A DNA stretch of 64,000 nt from Cyanidioschyzon merolae (GCA_000091205.1 AP006492.2); one strand, 5' to 3'; counted from the stretch's first letter, positions 647 through 40,713 are shown. Notes: a model not told the origin generated them from the letters alone. Made by a program: numbers and translations.

Positions 647-675
647 CTGCTGCTGCTGCTGCTGCTGCTGCTCCT
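647..675. repeat. (CTG)n microsatellite
   Basis: Run of ctgctgctg... read directly from the sequence. It translates to a poly-L/poly-Q stretch in overlapping spurious ORFs. Confidence 0.8.
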
Positions 676-945
676 GTTTTCCAGGTCCAGAGGTAGGCGC
701 TGCCATTGCCAGCTTGAGCCGAGACACTTTGATCTCCCTCAGTGCGATTTCTGGGTACAAACGAATGCAACGAGCATTGCAGCTTCATTATTCTACATGG
801 CATCTGCCTAGTGAGCACGAAGCGACACGGTGCCTCATCCTGCGATATTGTGCTTGGCTTGCTCGTTGCTGCGCATCGCTGCGCCCTCATACCGTTCGAG
901 TCATGGTCCGTACAACCCATCCGATTCGGTATGCTACGCCAGTTT

Positions 946-3203: not shown

Positions 3204-5726
3204 CTAGTAGGAGACATCCACGAGGCCGATGTGCCAGTAACCGTCGCGACTGAGGCGCCAGTTCGGAAACCCGCCACCACTTCCCCCGGGAGCACGATCC
3301 AGTATCCAGCCACATTCCATGCGCAAAGCGCCGAGCACACGCAACCCTAGTCCGACACTGATAACGCCGGACGCTGTGCTAGACCGCTGAATGGAGCCGG
3401 CGCTAGCTGGGGCATCAACGCCCGAGCTGGTGCTCTCAGCTGAGGCCGAATCCACAACGGTGCCGAGGCGGTGTCCGTGAGCGCCTCGACGGAACAACTT
3501 TGGAAAACGCACGAGATGCGAAGGTGGCTGAATCTCGGATCCCCAGTCCGTGAACGCCACAAACACGAGGCGCTTGTCGAGCGGGTATCGAAACTCTGCG
3601 CAGGTTCTCGCAAACGAGCCTACCTGTCCGAGTGATCCCTCACGCATCCCGCGAACGGTGGCTAATCCTCCGAAGGGATAACGCTCGGACTCGGGCAACG
3701 ATGCACTCGAAACACGTGCTTCAGCCAACAAAGCAACGCAGGCGCGGGCAGGCTGCTCTTCGTCTTGTTCTTGATTCTGGTGTGATGTTTCGGGTTGCTC
3801 GGTTTGTTTCCGACGACGACGCCGCAGGAGACCGCGAATAGGTGGTATTTTCTTGTACACACTGCCGGTGAAGCCAAAACGCGAATATTCTGGATTACTC
3901 GTTGTCACTGGAACCGCGTAGGCCGCATGCAGTGCAAGACGGTAGCCAGCTTGCGGATGGAGCGGATCCGATCGGGTATCACGGATAGCGCTGCTGTTCA
4001 GAACCAGGTGCGTGAAAGAGCGCTCTCGTGCGGTGGACGCTTCAGTCGTCGATTCATCGCGATTCCGTCTCGCTGACGCACCGTCTGCGGAAGCAGGAAG
4101 CGATGAGGACGCTGTCTGACCCGGATTCATTCCCGATGGAAACATTCGAACTTGCTCGCAGAGTACCCCTGTCTGGATATTCCATAGCTGCAGGGTCCGC
4201 TCCATGACGCTTCGCCAGGCAGCTGGTCGCAGCCAGGTTCGCGACGAGCGCCGAGCCTCATCTGTGGGTGCCGACCACAGCTGGGGCGCCATCAACGTAA
4301 CCTCTACCCCGCGACGACTTCCTACCGCCGTACTTCGTGATTCGAAGAGACGCACCTGGTAGCCGCCGGCCTTGGAACCTAGACGTGGATTCTGTAAGAC
4401 GATATGGGCTGCGTCATCGGATCGATCAGGCTTGGATCGGATATCTGCTTGAAAGCGAATCCCTCGGCCAGCGACATTTGCATCCTCCAAGGTTAGGTCT
4501 CCATAGAGCTTACCGCGGGAAAGCGTTATGCCGGGTTCGAAACGATGGAAAGGTCGTTCTCGCACGCGCAAGGTCAGTTCAACGTCACCTATTTCCGCAC
4601 AGCGTTCTGCTTGTGCGACTTGGCCTTCTGCTGCTGGCGAGTCGTGTGGCGTCACGGCGTCAATGACACGTACATCCGCTGTCACGGACTCGAACAGGCC
4701 CAACTGCTGCAGCCGCTGAAAGTGTTGTTCTGTCCAGCGGAACGGGACTTTGCGTGGACATGCCTTTTGCGCCGAACGCGACTTGCGCGAATGTCTCTGG
4801 TGGTCTGGCATTTCCTTCTCAACACCGAGTCCGTCATAGCCCAGGGCCCGGGCAATGACGCTGGCATGCGTCCGACCTGAGCACGGCTCCTGGTTGGCAT
4901 CCACGTATTCCACGAGGACTCTAGCGACGAGCGGCTCGTACGCCTCGAGGACCAGGATACCATCCTTGATAGGCGTATCGGGTGCTCTTCGTACAAGCGC
5001 AAGCGGGTATCCATGCTCGCCATAAAAAGCGTTCAAACTGTCGATTGAACGGCGAATGGCGGTGTAGTCAATGGACGCGTCAGCATTCTGATTAGCCTGA
5101 AGGATTCGATTCACCGCCTGCTCTAGGCGGTCACGTGGTAGCAGCAGACGATCAACGGGTCCACGGAGCACAACCTGGCGAAGTGGGCCTTTCGTCTGAT
5201 CGTTCGGATGTTCCGCGTAGATTTCGGCGGCTTCTTCTTCTGTAGCTGCAGTTGGGACGCTAAGCGCGAGAGCAGTCGGAGCACGCAGCCACACCTGTAC
5301 GGTGTGCCAGCATAGCGTCAGCCACAGCAGAAAACTTCCCCGATTGGGCAAGTCAGGAAAGCCACCAGCCACACCGTCGACGTAGGAGTTGCCTCCTCGG
5401 CCGCCACCGCCACGGAGAGTGCGGTCACCGATCGAACCGCACCAGGACCGTTTCACTCCAGGCTTGGTGGTGTTTCGGTGTCGCTTTCGACGAGAGCGTG
5501 CCATCGAGTCGAGCATTTGACTTTGCCACGAGCAGGTCAAAGGTTCTCCACGCTTCGATAACCACGTGGTGCTGCGGTGCCAGCGCTGCCCGGTACGATC
5601 CGCAGGAAACTGTTTCCTTGGTGCGTTCCGTCTTCGCTCGCGTGATGCAATAGATCGCGTACAGATTTTGAGAGCGTGAGCCCCTACACGAAGCGGATCA
5701 CCCGCCAGGAACCCCAGAACACACAT
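3204..5726 (-). CDS. Omp85-family outer-membrane beta-barrel protein (Toc75/OEP80-like or Sam50-like)
   Basis: The C-terminal part has the Omp85 barrel signature RYPFGGLATVRGMREGSLGQ...FRYPLDKRLVFVAFTDWGS and a terminal SVGLGLRV...DGYWHIGLVDVSY. Upstream is a POTRA-like segment (LRQVVLRGP...LEQAVNRIL...IDSLNAFYGEHGYPLALV...ILVLEAYEPLVARVLVEYVDANQ). The N-terminal extension contains a poly-Gly run (RTLRGGGGRGGNSYVDGVAGG) reminiscent of Toc75 targeting sequences. The ORF-track start at 5747 is GTG; the first ATG is at 5726. The true start may lie further downstream. Confidence 0.7.
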   Translation of the reverse strand: MCVLGFLAGDPLRVGAHALKICTRSIASRERRRNAPRKQFPADRTGQRWHRSTTWLSKRGEPLTCSWQSQMLDSMARSRRKRHRNTTKPGVKRSWCGSIGDRTLRGGGGRGGNSYVDGVAGGFPDLPNRGSFLLWLTLCWHTVQVWLRAPTALALSVPTAATEEEAAEIYAEHPNDQTKGPLRQVVLRGPVDRLLLPRDRLEQAVNRILQANQNADASIDYTAIRRSIDSLNAFYGEHGYPLALVRRAPDTPIKDGILVLEAYEPLVARVLVEYVDANQEPCSGRTHASVIARALGYDGLGVEKEMPDHQRHSRKSRSAQKACPRKVPFRWTEQHFQRLQQLGLFESVTADVRVIDAVTPHDSPAAEGQVAQAERCAEIGDVELTLRVRERPFHRFEPGITLSRGKLYGDLTLEDANVAGRGIRFQADIRSKPDRSDDAAHIVLQNPRLGSKAGGYQVRLFESRSTAVGSRRGVEVTLMAPQLWSAPTDEARRSSRTWLRPAAWRSVMERTLQLWNIQTGVLCEQVRMFPSGMNPGQTASSSLPASADGASARRNRDESTTEASTARERSFTHLVLNSSAIRDTRSDPLHPQAGYRLALHAAYAVPVTTSNPEYSRFGFTGSVYKKIPPIRGLLRRRRRKQTEQPETSHQNQEQDEEQPARACVALLAEARVSSASLPESERYPFGGLATVRGMREGSLGQVGSFARTCAEFRYPLDKRLVFVAFTDWGSEIQPPSHLVRFPKLFRRGAHGHRLGTVVDSASAESTSSGVDAPASAGSIQRSSTASGVISVGLGLRVLGALRMECGWILDRAPGGSGGGFPNWRLSRDGYWHIGLVDVSY

Positions 5727-6070
5727 AGCCCTACGACCCAGTCGCACGAGAACAACACATATCCTCAGCGATACAATGCTTCAGGGCGCGTGCGGCGCCT
5801 TGGCTGGCACAGCTGCTCGGTGTACTTGTCCTCTGAGACTGGTGAGACGTGCTGTTCCTCGACGTCGTTGGCGGTACGGGTCTCATGTTTGGGCTTTTCG
5901 TATAGCTTAGGGGAATTTCATGCGTATTGAGGGATTGAATAGTCCATTTTGCATAGAAGAGTGATCGGAAATCATCCCAAAAATGTCCAGGGTCATGTAG
6001 AGTAGCGGATCGTCGTGATCGTTCACCAAGGGTGCAGGAGAAACTTTCAAGCCATTTCTATACGGTGCTT

Positions 6071-6808
6071 CAGACGTTCTGGATTGATGGATCGTACCAT
6101 ACGATTGCCTTGATCCAGATGGGAATGCGAGACCGCCTCTCTTCTGGTCGCTGATATTGTTTCATCGAAAGTCTTCAGCGTTTCAGGACGAAGCGAATAC
6201 TGAAATTCAACGATTTCCTGGAGCGTTCTCTCGATGCAAAGGCGATGCAAGTTTCCACGGCGCGATACATAACCCGGATGTCGATTGACGCTTTGATTTC
6301 CTGGTTCGGAAAGCGGTTACCCGCATTATGGCTGCTGGGATCATTCCACAAAGTGCTTCTCAATATCGAGTGCCTTTCCATATGACGATCGGTTAGCGTA
6401 CCATGCAATATCGCGTGCTTCCGATGCTGTCTCATGCGCTGCTGCTCTACAAGCTTCAACTCGTACGAGTGCTCGTGATGCTAATATGTTGTCCTGAACG
6501 TATCGAATAACATCGATTCCAGCATTCGTTGTACGCTCTTTTCGAAAGAGCAGCAGTGCAGCTCCTGTCGGCTATAGCACTGTTTGCGCTATAACCTGCT
6601 TCGAAACGAGCCGACCTATCGGTCGTTTCCTTTTCCAACTCATTGAGACAGTTGGTGAAGGCGAGTTTCTTGCCTTTGTATTCCCGAAATTGTTGCTGAC
6701 TGCCCAGCGCGTTCTCATGTACTCTCTGAGAGAAGCATTCAAAGCATCAGACTCTGCTCAATACGGCGCTCAGGGTGTCGAGACGGGCTCTGACGCTGTC
6801 GTTCCACT
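6071..6808 (-). repeat. Dispersed repeat IR1, copy A (738 bp), inverted near-identical partner at 57110..57847
   Basis: The reverse complement of 6071..6808 matches 57110..57847 over the whole length with only a handful of mismatches. The encoded short ORFs differ by about 3 aa in total: ISITSTRTS vs ISIKSTRTS, AGNRF vs AGKRF, SRERSRK vs SSELSRK. Boundaries were read from where the flanking sequences diverge: agtggaacgacagcg...ccagaacgtctg. Confidence 0.85.
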
Positions 6809-8639
6809 AGTTGGTGTGCCCCGTGGCCTTTATCATGCTCGAATCCGGACAAAACAGCGCTCTCGAAAAACACAGGTCACATTGCATCCTGTGTCCCGAA
6901 AATCATTTATGTTGTCGCATGGGGTTTTTATCGAAAAGTTCCAGACGTTTGTGGACAGCTGATAGACCAGGGTCCGCAAATATTGCGAATCGTTGCATGT
7001 CGAGGTGCATCAAGGTGCGAGAAACCCGGTGAGACTTTCTCGAGTTCGAAGCTCTGCGACCTCTCAAGGCGTGCTAAATCTTTTTGCTGTCACAAATGCG
7101 AACGACTAGCCTATGGACACGGTAGCGTCACACTTGCGTTTGCCAACAGAGATGACGCTTTCGACTGGATTCAGCCAGAGAGAATAACTCGGCAAGAAGA
7201 GCAGCGCAACGCCATTCGCAGTTGCGTGCTCCTCGACCGCTGCCGAGTGATGGACAACGACGTTGTCTAACACCAGGACAGAAGCGTGCAGGATGGAGAC
7301 GCCATAAAGTGCTTCGACGAAGGATGAGGTGTTGAAGGACTCTGTCTGATCGGCGATTTCCAAGCGACCGAACGACTGAATCACTGCTCGGAGTGGTGTG
7401 TTCCGAGCGGTCGTTCGTCTCCTCTTGACGAATCGCCATATACCCACTTTAAGTAATATAATGCAGGTCTACCATTGCTCCAGAATAAAGTCTCATCGAG
7501 CGAGACGAGCACCGCTGTTGTACGCGCTTGCGTTTCAGTACCAAATGAAAAATGTGTTGTTCTATGCGCGAAAGGCTCACACAGAACTCGTCATTTTTCT
7601 CTGTGTATTCCGTGTCTAATCATCCTTGCTGGCGTTGACGGTATGGTAATCTCAAATCTTGTGGCCTCTTTGATGGGATATCTTGCAGAATTCACAGAAT
7701 GGAATCAATCGACGAGAAGAGATTCCCCCCGACAGAGATTCATAAGATTTGTTCTGTTTGTACGACATTAAGGATGAGGACCACAAGAACGGCTGTTTAT
7801 ACACCAGCTAATCATAAAATAACAGACTCGTCCAATTCATTTTCTGAAGCTGGCGATGAAGGCTTCAAGTTCTTTCGCGGGCATGTACCAATCTTCCAGC
7901 TGCGTTCTGTCTGTTGAATACCTGCAAGAACAACGAACAAGAATAAAAACACGATGCTGGAATAAGTATTCTAGAATGCACAGCTCCAAGTTCGACGCCC
8001 AGAAAAACAAAACTTTTGCGTGCAGATAGCTCGGTTTCACACGCTGCACGCTGCGTCCGGGCCCCGGAACAGAGCAGCTTGTCGTGTTGTGCACAGCAGT
8101 TGCGGTATGGGTTGCTGGATGTTGAACTCTGCGGCTGGAGCGCACGACCGCGGGACGTTAGCCTCTGCGATGCTGCGTCTAGACCCAGAGCGCGGGCATT
8201 GCTTGACAAGTGCGAGGCGGTGGGACCACGAACTGGAAAAATTCTCGAATACTGCTGTGCGGTAGCGTGTGTGGACGCGCAGGCCAGGAGGTTCTTCTCG
8301 ACCGGCGGCCAGCGCGTCGACGCTTATCGCAGCACCGAGCCCGAATGACGAGATGAATCCCTGTTCTCGTTGACACTCGGAGCTCTCGGTCGGCAAGGTT
8401 GTTTACCGTTGAGCTAGAGCAGCGCAGAAGCGTCTCTCGGGATGACGCCCTGTTTGCAGCACGGCTGCCAGGAACGTAATGGCGGGATACTTTACACCGT
8501 ATCCGGGTGTCACCTAGGTCAACGGATGACGGTATCAGCGGCGATCGTATCGCAAGGCGAAAACTCAGTAGCCTCTACAGCGATATTCTCAGTGAAACAG
8601 AAAATGACCCACGGCCACGGAGTATGAGTATTTATACCC

Positions 8640-9640
8640 ACCTGCAGACGTCTCCCAGTCTTTGTCGACCGGCCGCCTGCCATCGGCTTCAGTTTCTCTT
8701 TGTACACTTCGAACATGGGAGGCTATCCCAGGAATTTGAATGGTGTCAGCTCCCAGGGTCCCGTCTTCAGCACCGCACATCGTCTGGTATGGATGGCGGC
8801 ATCCAAGTCTCGATTCACGAAGTCCATGCGTCTACTGACATTGGTGGAGCTCATCAGTGCAAAGAGTCCACGAACTCGGGCCCTCTGTGCCATTTGGTGC
8901 AGTGCCAGCTCTCCGTGTTTTTCTCTTGCCGAAGCGCTCGGCTGCGCTCTCTCCATCTCGACCTTCTGTAATGGACACCCCAGCGCATCCATTAGATTCC
9001 CTACTTTTGAAAATGAATGCACTTGTTTATGCGCTTAGATGAGGAACCTCCCAGAGCGAGACGGCCTCGTACAAGAGAGGCGACATGTGCCTGGGTGTCA
9101 TCATGTGCTGAACGCTTCAGCGATTCGCTCAGTGCAGCGATCACTACTTTTCAGGATACAAAAATACTCCTTCGGCATGCTTGAACCACGAAGAGAAAGG
9201 AGGAATGAAAAGCATCTTTACCCCCATGGCATTTGCAAAGGCTCGAACGCGAGTAGAATGGTGGACTGCCACGTTGTCGAACACAGGAACGTCGCCAAGC
9301 GTCAGGGAAAGGTCTTCGATGATTCGACCGAGTGCTTGGTGCTGTTATATGAGCCTTCTCTACGAGCGAAGCTGAGGGCGCCGAATGAATCCAATGCACT
9401 TAGAACAGATGATGATATCATCGTTCTCTTCGGCTTCGATTTTACATACTACGTGCTCCCTGTTCCCCGAATACCCAAATACGCTCCGACCGTTTCGTCC
9501 GAGGCGATTCTGAATATCTGAAAAAAAGACGGACATGCCTAAGTTTTATAACGATCGCAAAGATCCAGAAATGCTGTAAGAGTTGCGATTTCGGTGGCAG
9601 ATGTATATGCTTGGACTAGGACTTTTTATTGCGACTGAAT
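8640..9640 (+). repeat. Dispersed repeat R2, copy A (about 1 kb), diverged partner at 55998..56845
   Basis: Nucleotide and ORF-level similarity to 55998..56845 in the same orientation. Examples: SMRLLTLVELISAKSPRTRALCAIWC vs SMRLLLLMELTVSRNPRTRALCAVCC, and on the other strand AQRARVRGLFALMSSTNVSRRMDFVNR vs the copy-B equivalent. The conserved blocks catccattag..ttttgaaaatgaatgcactt and ttgcgactgaatc are present in both copies. Coding potential is broken by frameshifts. Confidence 0.6.
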
Positions 9641-10593
9641 CGCAGTGTTTTCAGCACTTTGCCAATAAGCTGTTGAGTGACAGAGACACACCTAGTTGCT
9701 ACTATCGTAGCTTTTGCTTTCTCTAAAGTGATCAATGGATCGTTTTCTACCATTGCCCGCAAACAAGCTTTGAGAATATCGGTTTCTGGCGCGGAGCGCC
9801 TCTACTCGTTTCTTTCAGTCTTCCTCAATCATCTGAGCATTGTACCATGTCTGGCCTTACTGAGGAATGCAGTCCTCGTTGCGCTGTTCAGTAAAGTATA
9901 TATATCCTCCAGGCAATTCGTCATCTATCTACACGGCACATTGCGTATTTTCTTCGATCTGCAGTTACTCTCCGCATCGGGGGTAAACCGAAAATCGAGA
10001 TGAAACGCAATCAGGGCGTGCATCGGCAGTCCATGGAAGTATTCCTGCAGTGCTCATCATAGAGTGCTGTCAGGAACCGTTTCCAGATCGCCTGGACAAC
10101 TTCAAAGCATCCCATAACTTGAAATGGTCATGCAGGTAGACGCTCTTGTGGTATCGTGCTTCCTTTCAAGTACGATCCCAGCGTAAGGGTCCCCAGACAC
10201 GAGCGCGACATGAAACGCGATCAATTCTGCCCCAAGTTTTGAAACCTAAAACCCGTGCATACCGAGTCCATGCCTCGTGTGTTGTGAAACACGAGTCCCT
10301 GAATGCTGAGCGTCGTTTCTGGACCCGCTGGCATGCCGGCTGGCGAACGACGCAACAAGGTACTCGACGGCGTCTTGGAGCCAGTGAAAAGGACACAGCG
10401 ACTTGCACGCGAAACCGGCATCGATTGAGGCCAGATACAGCTATCTTGGGGGTGGCAGGGTGTCGGTCCTCGTCACGCAACCGGCGTCGAGAGTCCAACA
10501 ATAAACGCTTTAGCGGAGACTGAAACTGTGCCCTCGGGGAGTTGTTTGTACCCAATCGGTTGGAACTCGAAAAACCAGGCGGTTGGTTTGATC

Positions 10594-37858: not shown

Positions 37859-40315
37859 TTATCGGTCAAGGAAGCGTGCAACCTCTTTCAGTGAACGGAA
37901 TTTGCGTCCGTCCGGGGATACATAGACACGATCGATGCGTCCGGCTAGGGATCCACCTTTGCGGATTTGCTCCTCGAGTCGCCAGCCCGGTGGGAGCGTC
38001 AGCGTCAGCGACGGTTTGCGTCCACCCCGATGACGACGGTCCGTCGCTCCAGCACCAACAACGAGGCCGTTCTGACCTGCCACGATCTCCGTCTGGTCAA
38101 GCATTCGGCGGGTTTCCTCATTCACCCTATGGCCAGTGCGGTGGCGTTTGCGCTTACGGGCAAGTGCACGATCACTGTCTTTTTTGATCACTGGCAGTGA
38201 CGATCGCGGAAATCGATGAGCGGGTTTCGAAAGTCTCGCAGCTGCACTTGCTGGCGATGTCAGCGGTGAGGTCGACGACGAACGCATCGCCGACGCGTTC
38301 CTGTTCCGAAGGGCCAAAGCCTCTTCCCGGGACGACCTGCGGGGGCGGCGGAGACCCTGCTCCGCATCTCGAGCTGGTTCTTCTGCTTCATCGCTCCATG
38401 CTTCCTCGGAGTCGTCTCCGTCGCTTAGCTCGTGGGTGTACCACGCCCGATGCGGATACATTTGCGCAGCCGGTGCGGCTATTGTCGACCGCGGGAGCGC
38501 ACGCGGTAGCGATTCGGAGACAGCGTGAGGAGCCCTTGCCGTGCTGCGCGACGCGTTCAGCGTCGCAAGACGCTGAGCGGCTTCGAGTGCTCTAAAGTTC
38601 GAGTCAGCTGCATTTGAATCCTCCGCTCTCGACGATTCGGCGGGAGGTGCGGCCCCGAGTGCGCGCCTCGTCACAGCGGGGGGTGCTTTGCTTTTGACCT
38701 GCCAGTGGTCCGCACCACGCCAGATGGCGTACGGACGAAGCTGATCCAGGTGGAACCATTCGTCACTGCCGTCCGCGAAAGCGACGAGAAAGCCCTTGCG
38801 TGCTAAAAAATTTCGAACTTGGCCAACAGTCCAACAGCAGCCGTGGCCACTGGTGGACGCAGTGCGCGACGGCATGTCCGTCGAGCTTGTGCTCTTTCCT
38901 TGGATTTGATCGACCGCTGCCTGTTCTGCAGTGCTTGTCGAAGCGGATGGTGTCGCTGATGTTCCCGCACGTCCATGAGACAGCGACAAAAGCGCCTCTA
39001 CAGCTTCGCCAACACCGGGACGCCATTCTGGCATTGGTGGCGGGGGATACGGCCTCAACCGTGCGCCCAGCACAACCCGGTGCGGGCCCTCGGGCATTGC
39101 TCCCGTTCCCCCAGCTGCAGCACCTTGAACATTTGCAGGGCATGCGCCAGCTGTTTCCGAGTTAGCACAAGCATCTGCCCGGATGCGGAGCACCTCGTCT
39201 GCACTGAGGAATGCAATTTCATAGGCGGTCTTCGTCAACGGTGAAACATCATCGTATTCGCACACGCGATTGATACCATCATCCTGCGCGATTTCCACCG
39301 CTGAGAGAAGCGACTCGGTGCTTGATGGCCATGAAACGTCCGCCGAGATAATCCGCGCCGGACACCAGGCCCGGGCTGCTCCCGCTGAATCTAACAGCTC
39401 CACAACCTCGCCCGGCTTGTAGACTCGCTGGCACTGAAGCCGCGGCGTGGGCGGTATGCCCATTGCCGTCGACCGATGTGGAGACTGTAGAATCGCTGGC
39501 GGCTCTGAGCGAACCGGAACACATCTCCAGTTCGAATCTGGAATCGCCGCTGGTTCCTTTTGCCCGTTGTCCGCAAAAGACCCTGTATTCGACCAGTCTT
39601 GCCCCAGGGCACCGTAAGCGGGCGAGATTCGCAGCACCGAATCCGGTCGAGGCGATATCAACGGCGACGATTGCGACTGGCCCCCGGCGCCCGGTTTCGC
39701 AGCTCGACCACGTTCGTGAGGCCGCTTTGGACGTCTACGCGGCGCCGCATCCACAGTGGAATCTTGTTGCGAAGCGGAGCTTTGCATCGGCCCTAAATCC
39801 TGGGCAATCGATACAGGATTGTACATCCTTGCCTCAAGCTGGCTATCGCCTGATGGTGCCTGAGCATTCCAGGCACTCGTTGAGCGAGGCAAACTTGCGT
39901 TGGACGAGACTGCGTCGGTGGTCCCCGATGGCCCAGCGGCACGCAGCCCACGAGACTCTGAGGCCGTGCGCTTCCCCGGGGTCCGTGCGCGGCGATTCTT
40001 GAACCATAAGCGACAGGAGCGAACTGGAACGCCACTTGCCGAAGACAGCGCCTGCAACTCCGCTGTGCTCGGCATTGGATTCTGCTCGAAGACGGTTTTC
40101 AGCATCTGCATCTGCTCTGGCGTAAAGCGATGCCTCTTCATTCGTGACGCTTCTTCGGAAGATCGTTCGCTTTGAGTCGCTGCTCGGCCATCCGAGTGCG
40201 AGCCCTCAGTGCCACGAGCCAGAGCGTCCACTGCGTCCGCTGTTCGAAACTCGTGCTCAGCGGGTGCCCACGTCGGCAGCGGTGAATGCACCAAACTGTG
40301 ACCGGCAACGTCCAT
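37859..40315 (-). CDS. Multi-domain chromatin protein: homeodomain plus Tudor/Agenet-like barrel(s) plus C-terminal methyl-CpG-binding domain (MBD)
   Basis: N-terminal homeodomain RHRFTPEQMQMLKTVFEQNPMPSTAELQALSSASGVPVRSCRLWFKNRRART with the WFxNRR signature. Central YKPGEVVELLDSAGAARAWCPARIIS and VGQVRNFLARKGFLVAFADGSDEWFHLDQLRP resemble Tudor/Agenet-type barrels. C-terminal LPPGWRLEEQIRKGGSLAGRIDRVYVSPDGRKFRSLKEVARFL matches the MBD consensus (LPPGWKREEVIRKSGLSAGKSDVYYFSPSGKKFRSKPQLARYL). A basic GRKP stretch just before the MBD is AT-hook-like. Long S/A/P-rich linkers. The track start at 40342 is GTG; the first ATG is at 40315. Confidence 0.6.
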   Translation of the reverse strand: MDVAGHSLVHSPLPTWAPAEHEFRTADAVDALARGTEGSHSDGRAATQSERSSEEASRMKRHRFTPEQMQMLKTVFEQNPMPSTAELQALSSASGVPVRSCRLWFKNRRARTPGKRTASESRGLRAAGPSGTTDAVSSNASLPRSTSAWNAQAPSGDSQLEARMYNPVSIAQDLGPMQSSASQQDSTVDAAPRRRPKRPHERGRAAKPGAGGQSQSSPLISPRPDSVLRISPAYGALGQDWSNTGSFADNGQKEPAAIPDSNWRCVPVRSEPPAILQSPHRSTAMGIPPTPRLQCQRVYKPGEVVELLDSAGAARAWCPARIISADVSWPSSTESLLSAVEIAQDDGINRVCEYDDVSPLTKTAYEIAFLSADEVLRIRADACANSETAGACPANVQGAAAGGTGAMPEGPHRVVLGARLRPYPPPPMPEWRPGVGEAVEALLSLSHGRAGTSATPSASTSTAEQAAVDQIQGKSTSSTDMPSRTASTSGHGCCWTVGQVRNFLARKGFLVAFADGSDEWFHLDQLRPYAIWRGADHWQVKSKAPPAVTRRALGAAPPAESSRAEDSNAADSNFRALEAAQRLATLNASRSTARAPHAVSESLPRALPRSTIAAPAAQMYPHRAWYTHELSDGDDSEEAWSDEAEEPARDAEQGLRRPRRSSREEALALRNRNASAMRSSSTSPLTSPASAAARLSKPAHRFPRSSLPVIKKDSDRALARKRKRHRTGHRVNEETRRMLDQTEIVAGQNGLVVGAGATDRRHRGGRKPSLTLTLPPGWRLEEQIRKGGSLAGRIDRVYVSPDGRKFRSLKEVARFLDR

Positions 40316-40713
40316 TGGCCTCTCACAACAAAAGGGTAGCACGGGCTGTACGATAAAATGCCCACTGGCTAGTGTTCAGGGCGGCCAACGCAAGCGGCCC
40401 CGGTGCCGCTGGCTTCCGCAAAGCCAAGCGTTCTTCCGAACACACGCGCACCAGAAAGTGCCGTTCGCAAGCGTTCGTTGCTAACTTCCGTGACTTTTCT
40501 ACAGTCACTCAGTGATGGCAGGCTCGAAAAAGCCCACTGGAAAACTGCGGTTTCCGCGCGAGGCTGCACGCAACGGAGCTGAGCGTCGCAAGCAGTAGAG
40601 ACCGGCTACGTTGATTTGCAGCGTCTCGTGGCGATCGCCGAACACGCAGCGAATCTCGGGCTTTGCAGTTGGCTTGCGGAGGTTGGCGCGCTGCGCACAC
40701 GCCGAACGCCTGG

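What the first reader, a model, noticed from the sequence alone, without database searches (positions are those of the whole stretch)
3204..5726. Omp85-family barrel with POTRA domain and a poly-glycine stretch in its N-terminal extension, the configuration of plastid Toc75
The conserved Omp85 C-terminal barrel motifs and a POTRA-like segment are clear. Upstream of them the ORF encodes RTLRGGGGRGGNSYVDGVAGG followed by a hydrophobic stretch (FLLWLTLCWHTVQVWLRAPTALALSV). A poly-Gly stretch is, as I recall, a feature of the Toc75 bipartite targeting sequence that arrests it at the outer envelope. That would argue for Toc75/OEP80 over mitochondrial Sam50 and for a plastid in this organism. The protein also has long S/T/R-rich inserts between conserved blocks, unusual for Omp85 proteins, so part of the ORF may be non-coding read-through.
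Basis: partly seen in the sequence, partly recalled or inferred. Interest (0 to 1): 0.5.

Follow-up and report, generated by a model that had tools for sequence, protein, structure and literature searches.

The report
Red-algal plastid Omp85 gene (CMJ202C)
This is the already annotated nuclear gene for the single chloroplast outer-membrane Omp85 channel of the red alga Cyanidioschyzon merolae; its short glycine run is real, but it is not the long poly-glycine signal of green-plant Toc75.

Summary
Window 3204..5726 (minus strand) is an intact 840-codon gene, 100% identical to C. merolae 10D XP_005534927.1, locus CMJ202C, annotated 'similar to chloroplast import-associated channel Toc75'.

It encodes an Omp85 protein with two POTRA domains and a 16-strand barrel. 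The S/T/R-rich inserts are loops, not read-through.

It is a plastid Omp85, not Sam50. It falls with plastid and cyanobacterial Omp85s in 193/200 bootstraps. No Sam50 chain is among the 60 listed of 67 PDB profile hits, whereas Toc75 scores 5e-22. C. merolae Sam50 is a separate gene, CMO061C.

It is not demonstrably a Toc75 orthologue. Red-lineage sequences form their own clade (200/200), join green Toc75 in only 110/200 and never join OEP80. It has two POTRAs, not three, and lacks the Toc75 motifs.

GGGGRGG is rare in this window and positionally conserved in early-diverging red algae. It is short and lies upstream of a signal-peptide-like segment ending in AxA. In the green Toc75 sequences examined, a run of about 10 glycines lies between a hydrophobic stretch and the likely processing site.

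The 'LRGGG motif' and the lack of a typical polyglycine were published in 2007. Verdict: known gene; interpretation partly supported; low novelty.

The parts
3204..5726 (-). Complete CDS (840 codons plus stop) of the C. merolae plastid Omp85, CMJ202C / XP_005534927.1
   Evidence: ORF listing. 840/840 identity to P0013 = BAM80320.1/XP_005534927.1. Locus name from PMC2222254.
5424..5726 (-). Transit-peptide-like first part of the presequence (ORF aa 8-108). Starts MCVLGFLAG, with the red-algal N-terminal Phe motif; basic, hydroxylated and poor in acidic residues.
   Evidence: The first 110 aa have R+K 24%, S+T 16% and D+E 5%. The N-terminal L[G/A]FL aligns with MAIDLAFL and MDLAFL of the Cyanidiococcus-type orthologues. 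The Phe motif of red-algal transit peptides is described in PMC2222254 and PMC7038456.
5391..5411 (-). Glycine motif GGGGRGG (ORF aa 113-119), the 'LRGGG motif' of the literature
   Evidence: Coordinates. G113, G114 and G116 are invariant in alignment A1. Related motifs occur in Cyanidium, Galdieria, Porphyridium and stramenopile homologues. Described in PMC2222254.
5265..5333 (-). Signal-peptide-like second part: hydrophobic h-region FLLWLTLCWHTVQVWL (aa 139-154), preceded by an Arg and followed by RAPTALA, with Ala at -3 and -1 (AxA, aa 159-161). Predicted type I signal-peptidase site after A161.
   Evidence: Hydropathy maximum 1.27 (15-residue Kyte-Doolittle window). The same pattern of basic residue, hydrophobic stretch and AxA sits at the homologous position in Cyanidiococcus, P0003, Cyanidium and Porphyridium. 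Background is 3 such sites in 7,769 aa. Cleavage itself is inferred, not shown.
4938..5180 (-). POTRA domain A (ORF aa ~190-270), homologous to POTRA2 of cyanobacterial Omp85 and Toc75
   Evidence: AlphaFold elements E32-36, H46-59, H69-85, E92-95 and E105-111 (model numbering = ORF minus 159), pLDDT >90. Aligns to P0035 residues 321-390 and to 2x8x residues 104-183.
4557..4931 (-). POTRA domain B (ORF aa ~273-397), homologous to POTRA3, carrying two lineage-specific inserts
   Evidence: AlphaFold elements E114-123, H136-142, H181-189, E193-202 and E230-238. Aligns to P0035 residues 401-476.
3207..4547 (-). 16-stranded Omp85 beta-barrel (ORF aa ~401-847), with loop-6 motif ATVRGM (nt 3645..3656) and C-terminus WHIGLVDVSY
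4746..4832 (-). Insert 1 (aa 306-334), in POTRA B between helix 1 and helix 2
   Evidence: Lower pLDDT (~62). Present but poorly conserved in orthologues.
4584..4664 (-). Insert 2 (aa 362-388), in POTRA B between strand 2 and strand 3
4185..4274 (-). Insert 3 (aa 492-521), between barrel strands 6 and 7, with a predicted helix at aa 508-520
   Evidence: Partly conserved (W..LQ.WNIQTG).
4020..4142 (-). Insert 4 (aa 536-576), Ser/Ala/Thr-rich loop between strands 7 and 8
   Evidence: pLDDT <50. In-frame and of variable length in orthologues.
3741..3842 (-). Insert 5 (aa 636-669), Arg/Gln/Glu-rich segment between strands 10 and 11
   Evidence: pLDDT ~50. An equivalent RRRRRQRRQQQQ segment occurs in Cyanidium P0074.
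3360..3527 (-). Insert 6 (aa 741-796), Ser-rich loop between strands 13 and 14
   Evidence: pLDDT <50. Present in the three close orthologues.

Best explanation
This is the nuclear gene CMJ202C of Cyanidioschyzon merolae. It encodes the single plastid outer-envelope Omp85 protein of this red alga, a member of a red-lineage clade (red algae plus red-derived complex plastids) descended from the cyanobacterial Omp85.

The mature protein has two POTRA domains, equivalent to POTRA2 and POTRA3 of cyanobacterial Omp85 and Toc75, and a 16-strand barrel. The barrel carries long disordered loops specific to the Cyanidioschyzon/Cyanidiococcus/Cyanidium group.

Red algae are reported to have only this one plastid Omp85. 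It is therefore inferred to serve as the outer-envelope protein-conducting pore, and probably also as the beta-barrel insertase. Green plants divide these two jobs between Toc75 and OEP80.

The roughly 160-residue N-terminal extension is inferred to be a bipartite presequence:
1. A Phe-type transit peptide engages the import machinery.
2. A short Gly motif follows.
3. A signal-peptide-like segment (basic residue, hydrophobic core, AxA) halts or re-exports the protein at the inner envelope.
4. A type I signal peptidase removes that segment, releasing the POTRA end into the intermembrane space, from which the barrel inserts into the outer membrane.

Shown here: gene identity, domain architecture, clade membership, and conservation of the presequence elements. 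Inferred: localisation, the cleavage sites, the role of the glycines, and the dual function.
For: - Identity: 840/840 to XP_005534927.1, 'similar to chloroplast import-associated channel Toc75'.
- Omp85 domain and fold.
- Red plus secondary-red clade 200/200; plastid plus cyanobacterial group against other bacteria 193/200.
- The red-lineage profile hits cyanobacterial Omp85 POTRAs at 5.6e-25 and Chlamydomonas Toc75 at 5.2e-22. No Sam50 chain is among the 60 listed of 67 hits.
- Two POTRAs aligning to P2 and P3.
- Presequence elements conserved at homologous positions in Cyanidiococcus, Cyanidium and Porphyridium.
- G-rich element also present in stramenopile homologues.
- Literature: one plastid Omp85 per red alga (PMC4195282, PMC7038456). 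CMJ202C described with POTRA, Omp85 motifs 3 and 4 and an LRGGG motif (PMC2222254). Toc75's second presequence part is removed by Plsp1 (PMC4195282). A TPP/Plsp-type peptidase homologue from C. merolae was included in a published tree (PMC3210150).
Against: - There is no experimental localisation, N-terminal sequencing or functional data for this protein in the library searched.
- Baek et al. 2022 (PMC9407449) do not name an Omp85 or Toc75 homologue among the proteins they highlight as associated with preproteins in C. merolae (main text only; I did not check their mass-spectrometry table).
- The signal-peptide-like segment is absent from Galdieria and from the ~555-612 aa 'MAF...' red-algal-type homologues. 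It is therefore not universal in the clade.
- Its hydrophobicity in C. merolae is modest (1.27).
- My tree is neighbour-joining on score-based distances, and it contains no glaucophyte and no Sam50 sequence. The cyanobacterial and bacterial sets were chosen as hits to the query profile, which biases them.
Confidence: 0.7

Rival explanations
1. It is a true orthologue of green-plant Toc75. Its GGGGRGG run does the same job as the Toc75 polyglycine stretch, arresting the precursor at the envelope.
For: - Annotated as Toc75-like.
- The best NCBIfam model is TIGR00992 (IAP75): 58.6 bits against 27.4 for BamA.
- The red clade joins green Toc75 in 110/200 bootstraps and never joins OEP80.
- Earlier phylogenies placed the red sequences in the Toc75 group (PMC4195282).
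- A paper title cited reports that a single tri-glycine segment is the critical part of the pea polyglycine stretch.
- The Gly motif is conserved.
Against: - 58.6 bits is far below the TIGR00992 cut-off of 1163.
- A green Toc75 profile scores only 29 bits, against 53 for OEP80 and 89 for cyanobacterial Omp85.
- Two POTRAs, not three.
- No hit to PF25280 or PF25282, which score 1e-57 and 1e-68 in Coffea TOC75-3.
- The Toc75 signatures LGGPYSVRGY and a GERF C-terminus are absent.
- The Gly run is short and lies on the other side of the hydrophobic segment.
- Gly runs also occur in 6 of 21 OEP80s.
Confidence: 0.15
2. It is functionally an OEP80/BamA-type beta-barrel insertase only. Bulk protein import across the red-algal outer envelope uses a different, still unidentified channel.
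For: - Closer in profile score to OEP80 and to cyanobacterial and bacterial Omp85 than to Toc75.
- Knopp et al. head a section 'The Red Toc75 Is an Oep80' (PMC7038456).
- Baek et al. name no Omp85 among the preprotein-associated proteins they highlight (main text only) and call for re-evaluation of red-algal TOC (PMC9407449).
Against: - The red clade never groups with OEP80 (0/200), and it lacks the OEP80 loop-6 signature IGGTNSVRGY.
- No alternative pore is known.
Confidence: 0.15
3. The N-terminal extension is simply one long transit peptide, or it contains an uncleaved membrane anchor. On this reading the Gly motif and the hydrophobic/AxA segment have no separate sorting role.
For: - The hydrophobic segment is only moderately hydrophobic in C. 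merolae.
- Galdieria and the shorter red-algal-type homologues do without it.
- No processing data exist.
Against: - The basic-hydrophobic-AxA pattern recurs at the homologous position in five sequences, including Cyanidium and Porphyridium. The surrounding sequence is otherwise unconserved. Background is about 0.4 such sites per 1,000 aa.
- An acidic linker follows in all of them.
Confidence: 0.2
4. It is the mitochondrial Sam50.
Against: - No Sam50 chain is among the 60 listed of 67 PDB hits of the red-lineage profile, whereas Toc75, cyanobacterial Omp85 and BamA score 1e-14 to 1e-38.
- It has two POTRAs and a 160-aa Phe-type presequence.
- It falls in the plastid plus cyanobacterial group in 193/200 bootstraps.
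- C. merolae Sam50 is a different gene, CMO061C (PMC3095331 supplement).
Confidence: 0.01

Closest known systems
CMJ202C / XP_005534927.1 / BAM80320.1 of Cyanidioschyzon merolae 10D ('similar to chloroplast import-associated channel Toc75')
   Same: Identical over all 840 residues; this is that gene.
   Different: Nothing. Metagenome gene callers label near-identical copies 'BamA' and start them at Met82, giving 766 aa.
Red-lineage plastid Omp85s: Cyanidiococcus (P0002), Cyanidium (P0074), Galdieria (P0079), Porphyridium (P0036); stramenopile homologues (Cladosiphon P0034, Tribonema P0051); and the diatom ptOmp85 discussed in PMC2222254
   Same: One clade (200/200). Shared features: Phe-type targeting signal, two POTRAs, C-terminal H[FI]G[LM].D signature, loop-6 TVRG[YFM]. 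The G-rich element is shared with most of them.
   Different: The Cyanidioschyzon/Cyanidiococcus/Cyanidium proteins are ~250 residues longer because of loop inserts. Galdieria and the shorter 'MAF...' sequences lack the signal-peptide-like segment.
Green-lineage Toc75 (Toc75-III; Chlamydomonas 7vcf_B/P0093, Coffea P0115)
   Same: Omp85 barrel, POTRA2-3, nuclear-encoded with a long cleavable-looking N-terminal extension containing glycines and an Ala-rich processing site.
   Different: Toc75 has three POTRAs (per PMC4195282). Glycine runs are present in all ten examined, 9-11 consecutive in five of them; in the four full-length N-termini read they lie after a hydrophobic stretch. Toc75 also has LGGPYSVRGY, a GERF C-terminus and the Toc75-specific Pfam POTRA families. 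None of these is present here. Orthology is unresolved.
Green-lineage OEP80 (Toc75-V; P0083, P0143, P0187, P0200)
   Same: Omp85 barrel and POTRAs. A green OEP80 profile fits better than a green Toc75 profile (53 vs 29 bits). Literature calls the red protein 'an Oep80' (PMC7038456).
   Different: It never groups with OEP80 (0/200). OEP80 groups with cyanobacteria (184/200). OEP80 has three POTRAs (per PMC4195282) and the IGGTNSVRGY and RFHFGIG signatures.
Cyanobacterial Omp85 (Thermosynechococcus Tlr1789 2x8x, Anabaena Alr2269 3mc8)
   Same: The best direct sequence matches in the PDB are to their POTRA2-3. Presumed ancestor.
   Different: Cyanobacterial proteins have three POTRAs, a plain Sec signal peptide, no glycine runs (0 of 12) and a GERF-type C-terminus.

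Membership tests
Omp85 superfamily | C-terminal 16-strand beta-barrel matching Pfam PF01103 | tested here: met
Omp85 superfamily | One or more N-terminal POTRA domains (beta-alpha-alpha-beta-beta) | tested here: met
   Two such modules in the model. Sequence match to crystallised cyanobacterial POTRAs. Pfam POTRA models are only sub-threshold.
Omp85 superfamily | Loop-6 (V/I)RG(Y/F) motif | tested here: met
   ATVRGM at aa 696-701. Met replaces Tyr/Phe in the Cyanidioschyzon/Cyanidiococcus/Cyanidium group only.
Red-lineage plastid Omp85 clade | Monophyly with red-algal homologues and homologues from red-derived plastids | tested here: met
   200/200 bootstraps (neighbour-joining, 71 sequences, 537 columns). 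Labelled members: Cyanidiococcus, Cyanidium, Galdieria, Porphyridium, Cladosiphon, Tribonema.
Red-lineage plastid Omp85 clade | N-terminal Phe-type plastid targeting signal | tested here: met
   MCVLGFLAG, aligned with MAIDLAFL and MDLAFL. The motif is defined in PMC2222254 and PMC7038456. Function not tested.
Red-lineage plastid Omp85 clade | Location in the plastid outer envelope | not testable with these tools
   No localisation data were found in the papers searched.
Green-lineage Toc75 (Toc75-III) | Phylogenetic grouping with green Toc75 | tested here: inconclusive
   110/200 bootstraps. Published trees disagree (PMC4195282 vs PMC7038456).
Green-lineage Toc75 (Toc75-III) | Three POTRA domains | tested here: not met
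   Two POTRAs, aligning to P2 and P3 only. About 25 residues lie between the predicted cleavage site and the first POTRA. Three POTRAs in Toc75, OEP80 and cyanobacterial Omp85 per PMC4195282.
Green-lineage Toc75 (Toc75-III) | Long polyglycine stretch in the second part of the bipartite transit peptide | tested here: not met
   GGGGRGG only, and it lies upstream of the hydrophobic segment. All 10 green Toc75s examined have glycine runs, 9-11 consecutive in five of them; in the four full-length N-termini read they lie downstream of a hydrophobic stretch. PMC2222254 states the typical stretch is absent.
Green-lineage Toc75 (Toc75-III) | Toc75-type POTRA families PF25282 and PF25280, and the TIGR00992 cut-off | tested here: not met
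   No hit at E<=1, against 7.8e-68 and 2.2e-57 in Coffea TOC75-3. TIGR00992 58.6 bits against a cut-off of 1163.
Green-lineage Toc75 (Toc75-III) | Two-step processing by the stromal peptidase and Plsp1 | not testable with these tools
   The sequence is compatible: transit-peptide-like part plus basic-hydrophobic-AxA segment. No processing data.
Green-lineage OEP80 (Toc75-V) | Phylogenetic grouping with OEP80 and the OEP80 signatures (IGGTNSVRGY, RFHFGIG C-terminus) | tested here: not met
   0/200 bootstraps. Signatures absent.
Mitochondrial Sam50 | Sequence similarity to Sam50 | tested here: not met
   No Sam50 chain is among the 60 listed of 67 PDB hits of the red-lineage profile, so any Sam50 match has E>4.6e-5. 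Toc75 scores 5.2e-22.
Mitochondrial Sam50 | Single POTRA, no long cleavable presequence, and being the genome's Sam50 | tested here: not met
   Two POTRAs and a ~160-aa extension. CmSam50 is listed as CMO061C (PMC3095331 supplement).

The most novel reading that the evidence does not exclude
The early-diverging red algae (Cyanidioschyzon, Cyanidiococcus, Cyanidium, Porphyridium) keep a canonical signal peptide (basic residue, hydrophobic core, AxA) behind the transit peptide of their only plastid Omp85. This would be the ancestral, 'conservative-sorting' form of the bipartite Toc75 presequence. It would date from before the Toc75/OEP80 duplication, and it may be a direct relic of the cyanobacterial Omp85 signal peptide. 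The green polyglycine stretch would then be a later elaboration of a short Gly element that was already present in the common ancestor. The same proteins have lost POTRA1, so a two-POTRA Omp85 would be sufficient for all outer-envelope Omp85 functions in a primary plastid.
Probability: 0.3. Interest if true: 0.45.

Novelty: already known. Interest (0 to 1): 0.2.

Why it matters
The gene is a textbook component of a well-studied question: how the cyanobacterial Omp85 became the chloroplast import pore. Red algae matter because they are reported to run the outer envelope with one Omp85, where green plants use two.

Nothing here changes that picture. The gene, its Omp85 and POTRA motifs and its 'LRGGG' motif have been in the literature since 2007.

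Two details are modestly useful to specialists. I did not find either stated in the papers searched:
- A signal-peptide-like segment ending in AxA is conserved behind the transit peptide in several early-diverging red algae.
- The red-lineage proteins have two POTRA domains, not three.

Both make the targeting route of the red-algal Omp85 directly testable in the C. merolae transformation and import system.

Tried and rejected
- AlphaFold with only the four close orthologues failed (pLDDT 33). A 48-sequence alignment was needed.
- The word-indexed homologue search with the full protein found only 3 proteins. With a mixed alignment it returned almost only green Toc75, and none of the red or OEP80 query relatives.
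- Cluster look-ups gave no organism names for the ~555-612 aa 'MAF...' group. Its red-algal identity is inferred from the Phe motif and its tree position only.
- Family-profile scores are confounded, because the cyanobacterial and 'other bacteria' sets were themselves selected as hits to the query profile. I use them only for the Toc75-versus-OEP80 contrast.
- Codon-position GC does not clearly separate inserts from conserved blocks, because this genome has little GC3 bias. The case that the inserts are coding rests on the uninterrupted frame, orthologue conservation and their loop positions.
- There are no tRNA genes and no Rfam matches in the window.
- I considered and rejected Sam50, a bacterial contaminant (the neighbours are eukaryotic nuclear genes), and non-coding read-through.
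Full report
**What is there**

The finding sits on the minus strand. The open frame runs 3204..5747 (847 aa from a GTG). Those 840 residues are 100% identical to Cyanidioschyzon merolae 10D BAM80320.1/XP_005534927.1, 'similar to chloroplast import-associated channel Toc75', on an 839,707-bp contig. The literature calls this locus CMJ202C (PMC2222254).

The window is therefore red-algal nuclear DNA. The neighbouring ORFs are ordinary eukaryotic genes: fatty-acid desaturase, Nfu, WD40, Mo25, Dus, a complex I 49-kDa subunit, a homeodomain protein, ABC-F, a class II aminoacyl-tRNA synthetase, COG4 and actin-like.

**Domain architecture**

- Pfam's Omp85 domain passes its threshold (E=1e-12). The generic POTRA models do not.
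- The protein does match the crystallised POTRA domains of Thermosynechococcus Omp85 directly (2x8x; E=1.2e-4 for the single sequence, 1.8e-6 with a profile of orthologues).
- A first AlphaFold run with four sequences was useless (pLDDT 33). With a 48-sequence alignment of distant homologues, the model of residues 160-847 reached pLDDT 80.8 and pTM 0.78.
- That model shows two beta-alpha-alpha-beta-beta POTRA modules (ORF aa ~190-270 and ~273-397) followed by 16 barrel strands.
- In the alignment, the two POTRAs correspond to POTRA2 and POTRA3 of cyanobacterial Omp85.
- A profile built only from red-lineage sequences aligns to residues 77-234 of the Thermosynechococcus construct and to residues 150-310 of the pea Toc75 POTRA construct. 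These are again the last two POTRAs.
- Toc75, OEP80 and cyanobacterial Omp85 have three POTRAs (PMC4195282).

**The inserts**

The six S/T/R/Q-rich segments coincide with the low-confidence stretches of the model. Two lie inside POTRA B. The others lie between barrel strands 6/7, 7/8, 10/11 and 13/14.

They are present, in frame, with variable sequence and length, in Cyanidiococcus, in a third related sequence (P0003) and in Cyanidium. They are absent from Galdieria and from shorter homologues. Their GC content (0.61) is that of the gene, not of the adjacent intergenic DNA (0.50).

I conclude they are translated loop expansions specific to the Cyanidioschyzon/Cyanidiococcus/Cyanidium group, not read-through. 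Only transcript data can prove it.

**Which Omp85 is it?**

A full HMMER search of 1.8 billion representatives with the orthologue profile found only 53 proteins at E<=1e-3. The labelled ones are Cyanidium, Galdieria, Porphyridium, a brown alga and a xanthophyte. The rest include cyanobacterial-type Omp85s, a few other bacteria, and one green-algal protein. The last search showed that protein to be an OEP80. I fetched green Toc75 sequences by way of the Chlamydomonas Toc75 chain of the TOC-TIC structure.

A neighbour-joining tree (71 sequences, 537 columns, score-based distances, 200 bootstraps) gave:

| Grouping | Bootstrap support |
|---|---|
| Red plus secondary-red sequences | 200/200 |
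| Green Toc75 | 200/200 |
| Green OEP80 | 200/200 |
| All plastid plus cyanobacterial sequences, against other bacteria | 193/200 |
| OEP80 with cyanobacteria | 184/200 |
| Red clade with Toc75 | 110/200 |
| Red clade with OEP80 | 0/200 |

Other evidence points the same way:
- Family profiles score the C. merolae protein at 29 bits (green Toc75), 53 bits (green OEP80) and 89 bits (cyanobacterial Omp85). The last set is biased by how it was chosen.
- The clade has its own signatures, TVRG[YFM] in loop 6 and H[FI]G[LM].D at the C-terminus. It has neither the Toc75 signatures (LGGPYSVRGY, GERF) nor the OEP80 ones (IGGTNSVRGY, RFHFGIG).
- It does not hit the Toc75-specific POTRA families PF25280 and PF25282, which Coffea TOC75-3 hits at 1e-57 and 1e-68.

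This matches the published state of the question. Each red alga has one plastid Omp85. It is placed with Toc75 in some trees and outside green Toc75 plus OEP80 in others (PMC4195282; PMC7038456). [quoted passage not shown]

**Sam50**

- The red-lineage profile hits Chlamydomonas Toc75 at 5.2e-22, cyanobacterial POTRAs at 5.6e-25 and BamA proteins at 1e-14 to 1e-38. No Sam50 chain appears among the 60 listed of 67 hits.
- The protein has two POTRAs and a long plastid-type presequence.
- C. merolae Sam50 is listed as another gene, CMO061C (PMC3095331 supplement).

**The N-terminal extension**

Aligning the N-termini of Cyanidioschyzon, two Cyanidiococcus-type sequences, Cyanidium, Galdieria and Porphyridium shows a common order:
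1. A start with an L[G/A]F or AF motif, the Phe signal of red-algal transit peptides (PMC2222254, PMC7038456).
2. A basic, hydroxylated stretch.
3. A short Gly element.
4. A polar or acidic spacer.
5. An Arg followed by a hydrophobic core.
6. An Ala-x-Ala.
7. An acidic linker and the first POTRA.

The Gly elements are:

| Organism | Gly element |
|---|---|
| Cyanidioschyzon merolae | GGGGRGG |
| Cyanidiococcus | NGGGGDK |
| P0003 | NGGRGK |
| Cyanidium | AGGDGGK |
| Galdieria | GSGGDK |
| Porphyridium | VGGGGEWGRRG |

The AxA sites are ALA|L, AHA|A, AHA|A, AWA|R and AHA|A.

A simple scan for 'basic residue, 15-residue window with hydropathy >=1.2, AxA within ~14 residues' finds this site in five of the six sequences. 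It finds only 3 sites in 7,769 aa of other ORFs from this window. Runs of four or more glycines are absent from those 7,769 aa. The pattern is therefore not chance.

Galdieria and the ~555-612-aa 'MAF...' homologues lack the hydrophobic/AxA part. Stramenopile homologues have G-rich stretches after their ER signal and Phe, up to GGGGGG in Tribonema.

**Comparison with real Toc75 presequences**

In the full-length N-termini I read (Coffea, Chlamydomonas, Volvox, Dunaliella), the order is transit peptide, mildly hydrophobic stretch, 9-11 consecutive glycines, then the likely processing site. I infer that site from the sequence (AIA|K in Coffea, ELA|E in Chlamydomonas).

In C. merolae the glycines number four (six of seven) and lie about 20 residues before the hydrophobic core. 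Glycine runs were found in 10 of 10 green Toc75s, but also in 6 of 21 green OEP80s, and in 0 of 12 cyanobacterial Omp85s. A short run is therefore not diagnostic of Toc75.

Wunder et al. [quoted passage not shown]

**How it most likely works**

Shown: a nuclear gene for a two-POTRA, 16-strand Omp85 of the red plastid clade, with a conserved composite N-terminal extension.

Inferred from established knowledge of Toc75 biogenesis, in which the first part is removed in the stroma and the second by the type I signal peptidase Plsp1 (PMC4195282):
1. The Phe-type transit peptide takes the precursor into the import apparatus.
2. The signal-peptide-like segment stops it at, or re-exports it across, the inner envelope.
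3. A type I signal peptidase cuts after the AxA. A C. merolae homologue of this peptidase family was included in the tree of PMC3210150.
4. The POTRA end is released in the intermembrane space, and the barrel inserts from inside.

The glycines may act as a flexible spacer or as an arrest element, as in pea. This is untested. Because it is reported to be the only plastid Omp85, the mature protein is inferred to be both import pore and barrel insertase.

**Verdict**

The read-through idea is not supported.

The gene is already annotated and discussed in the literature, so novelty is low. Two details could be followed up experimentally: the conserved signal-peptide-like element and the two-POTRA architecture.

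**Limits of my analysis**
- The tree is a distance tree without site-heterogeneous models.
- It contains no glaucophyte or Sam50 sequences.
- The 'MAF...' homologues are unlabelled.
- There are no transcript or protein data.

Noticed in passing
window 5750-10500: A 4.8-kb stretch upstream of the Omp85 gene has no ORF of 200 aa or more and has lower GC (0.44-0.50). It contains a fragment of a DDE_3 (PF13358, IS630/Tc1-like) transposase (ORF 7106..7447, minus strand, E=2.3e-15) among broken ORFs. It is probably a decayed DNA transposon in an otherwise compact genome.
   Followed up: partly
window 37859-40342 (-): An 827-aa ORF combines an N-terminal homeodomain (PF00046, E=4e-13) with a C-terminal methyl-CpG-binding domain (PF01429, E=2e-12). 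This pairing struck me as uncommon (my impression; not checked against any database).
   Followed up: no
window 4557-5180 (-); loci/proteins P0025-P0040, P0036, P0079: The whole red-lineage clade appears to have two POTRA domains (equivalents of P2 and P3), where Toc75, OEP80 and cyanobacterial Omp85 have three. I did not find this stated in the papers searched.
   Followed up: partly
proteins P0187 (Chlamydomonas OEP80), P0177 (Closterium), P0193 (Gonium): Some green-algal OEP80 proteins carry runs of 5-8 glycines in their N-terminal regions, although OEP80 is described as lacking a polyglycine stretch (PMC4195282). This may simply reflect the G/A-rich composition of these genomes.
   Followed up: no
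proteins P0001, P0004-P0015 (hot-spring metagenome copies of this gene): Thirty-seven sequences at >=90% identity in the same cluster, mostly from JGI and Logan assemblies (hot-spring origin is my assumption, not shown by the tools), are labelled 'outer membrane protein assembly factor BamA'. Most are started at Met82 (766 aa) by prokaryotic gene callers. This is a source of mis-annotation of a eukaryotic plastid gene.
   Followed up: no
window 4185-4274 (-), ORF aa 492-521: The segment between barrel strands 6 and 7 is predicted to hold a helix (aa 508-520), followed by a motif conserved in the orthologues (W..LQ.WNIQTG). By the usual Omp85 strand numbering (my reading, not checked here) this is a turn on the POTRA side of the membrane, which would be an unusual place for a long structured insert.
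   Followed up: no
window 647-676: A (CTG)10 trinucleotide repeat, the only tandem repeat found in the first 12 kb.
   Followed up: no
proteins P0055, P0062: Two unlabelled bacterial Omp85s ending in NFGVGWKF group with the cyanobacterial plus OEP80 clade (184-193/200), not with the other bacterial BamA sequences. Their organisms are unknown.
   Followed up: no
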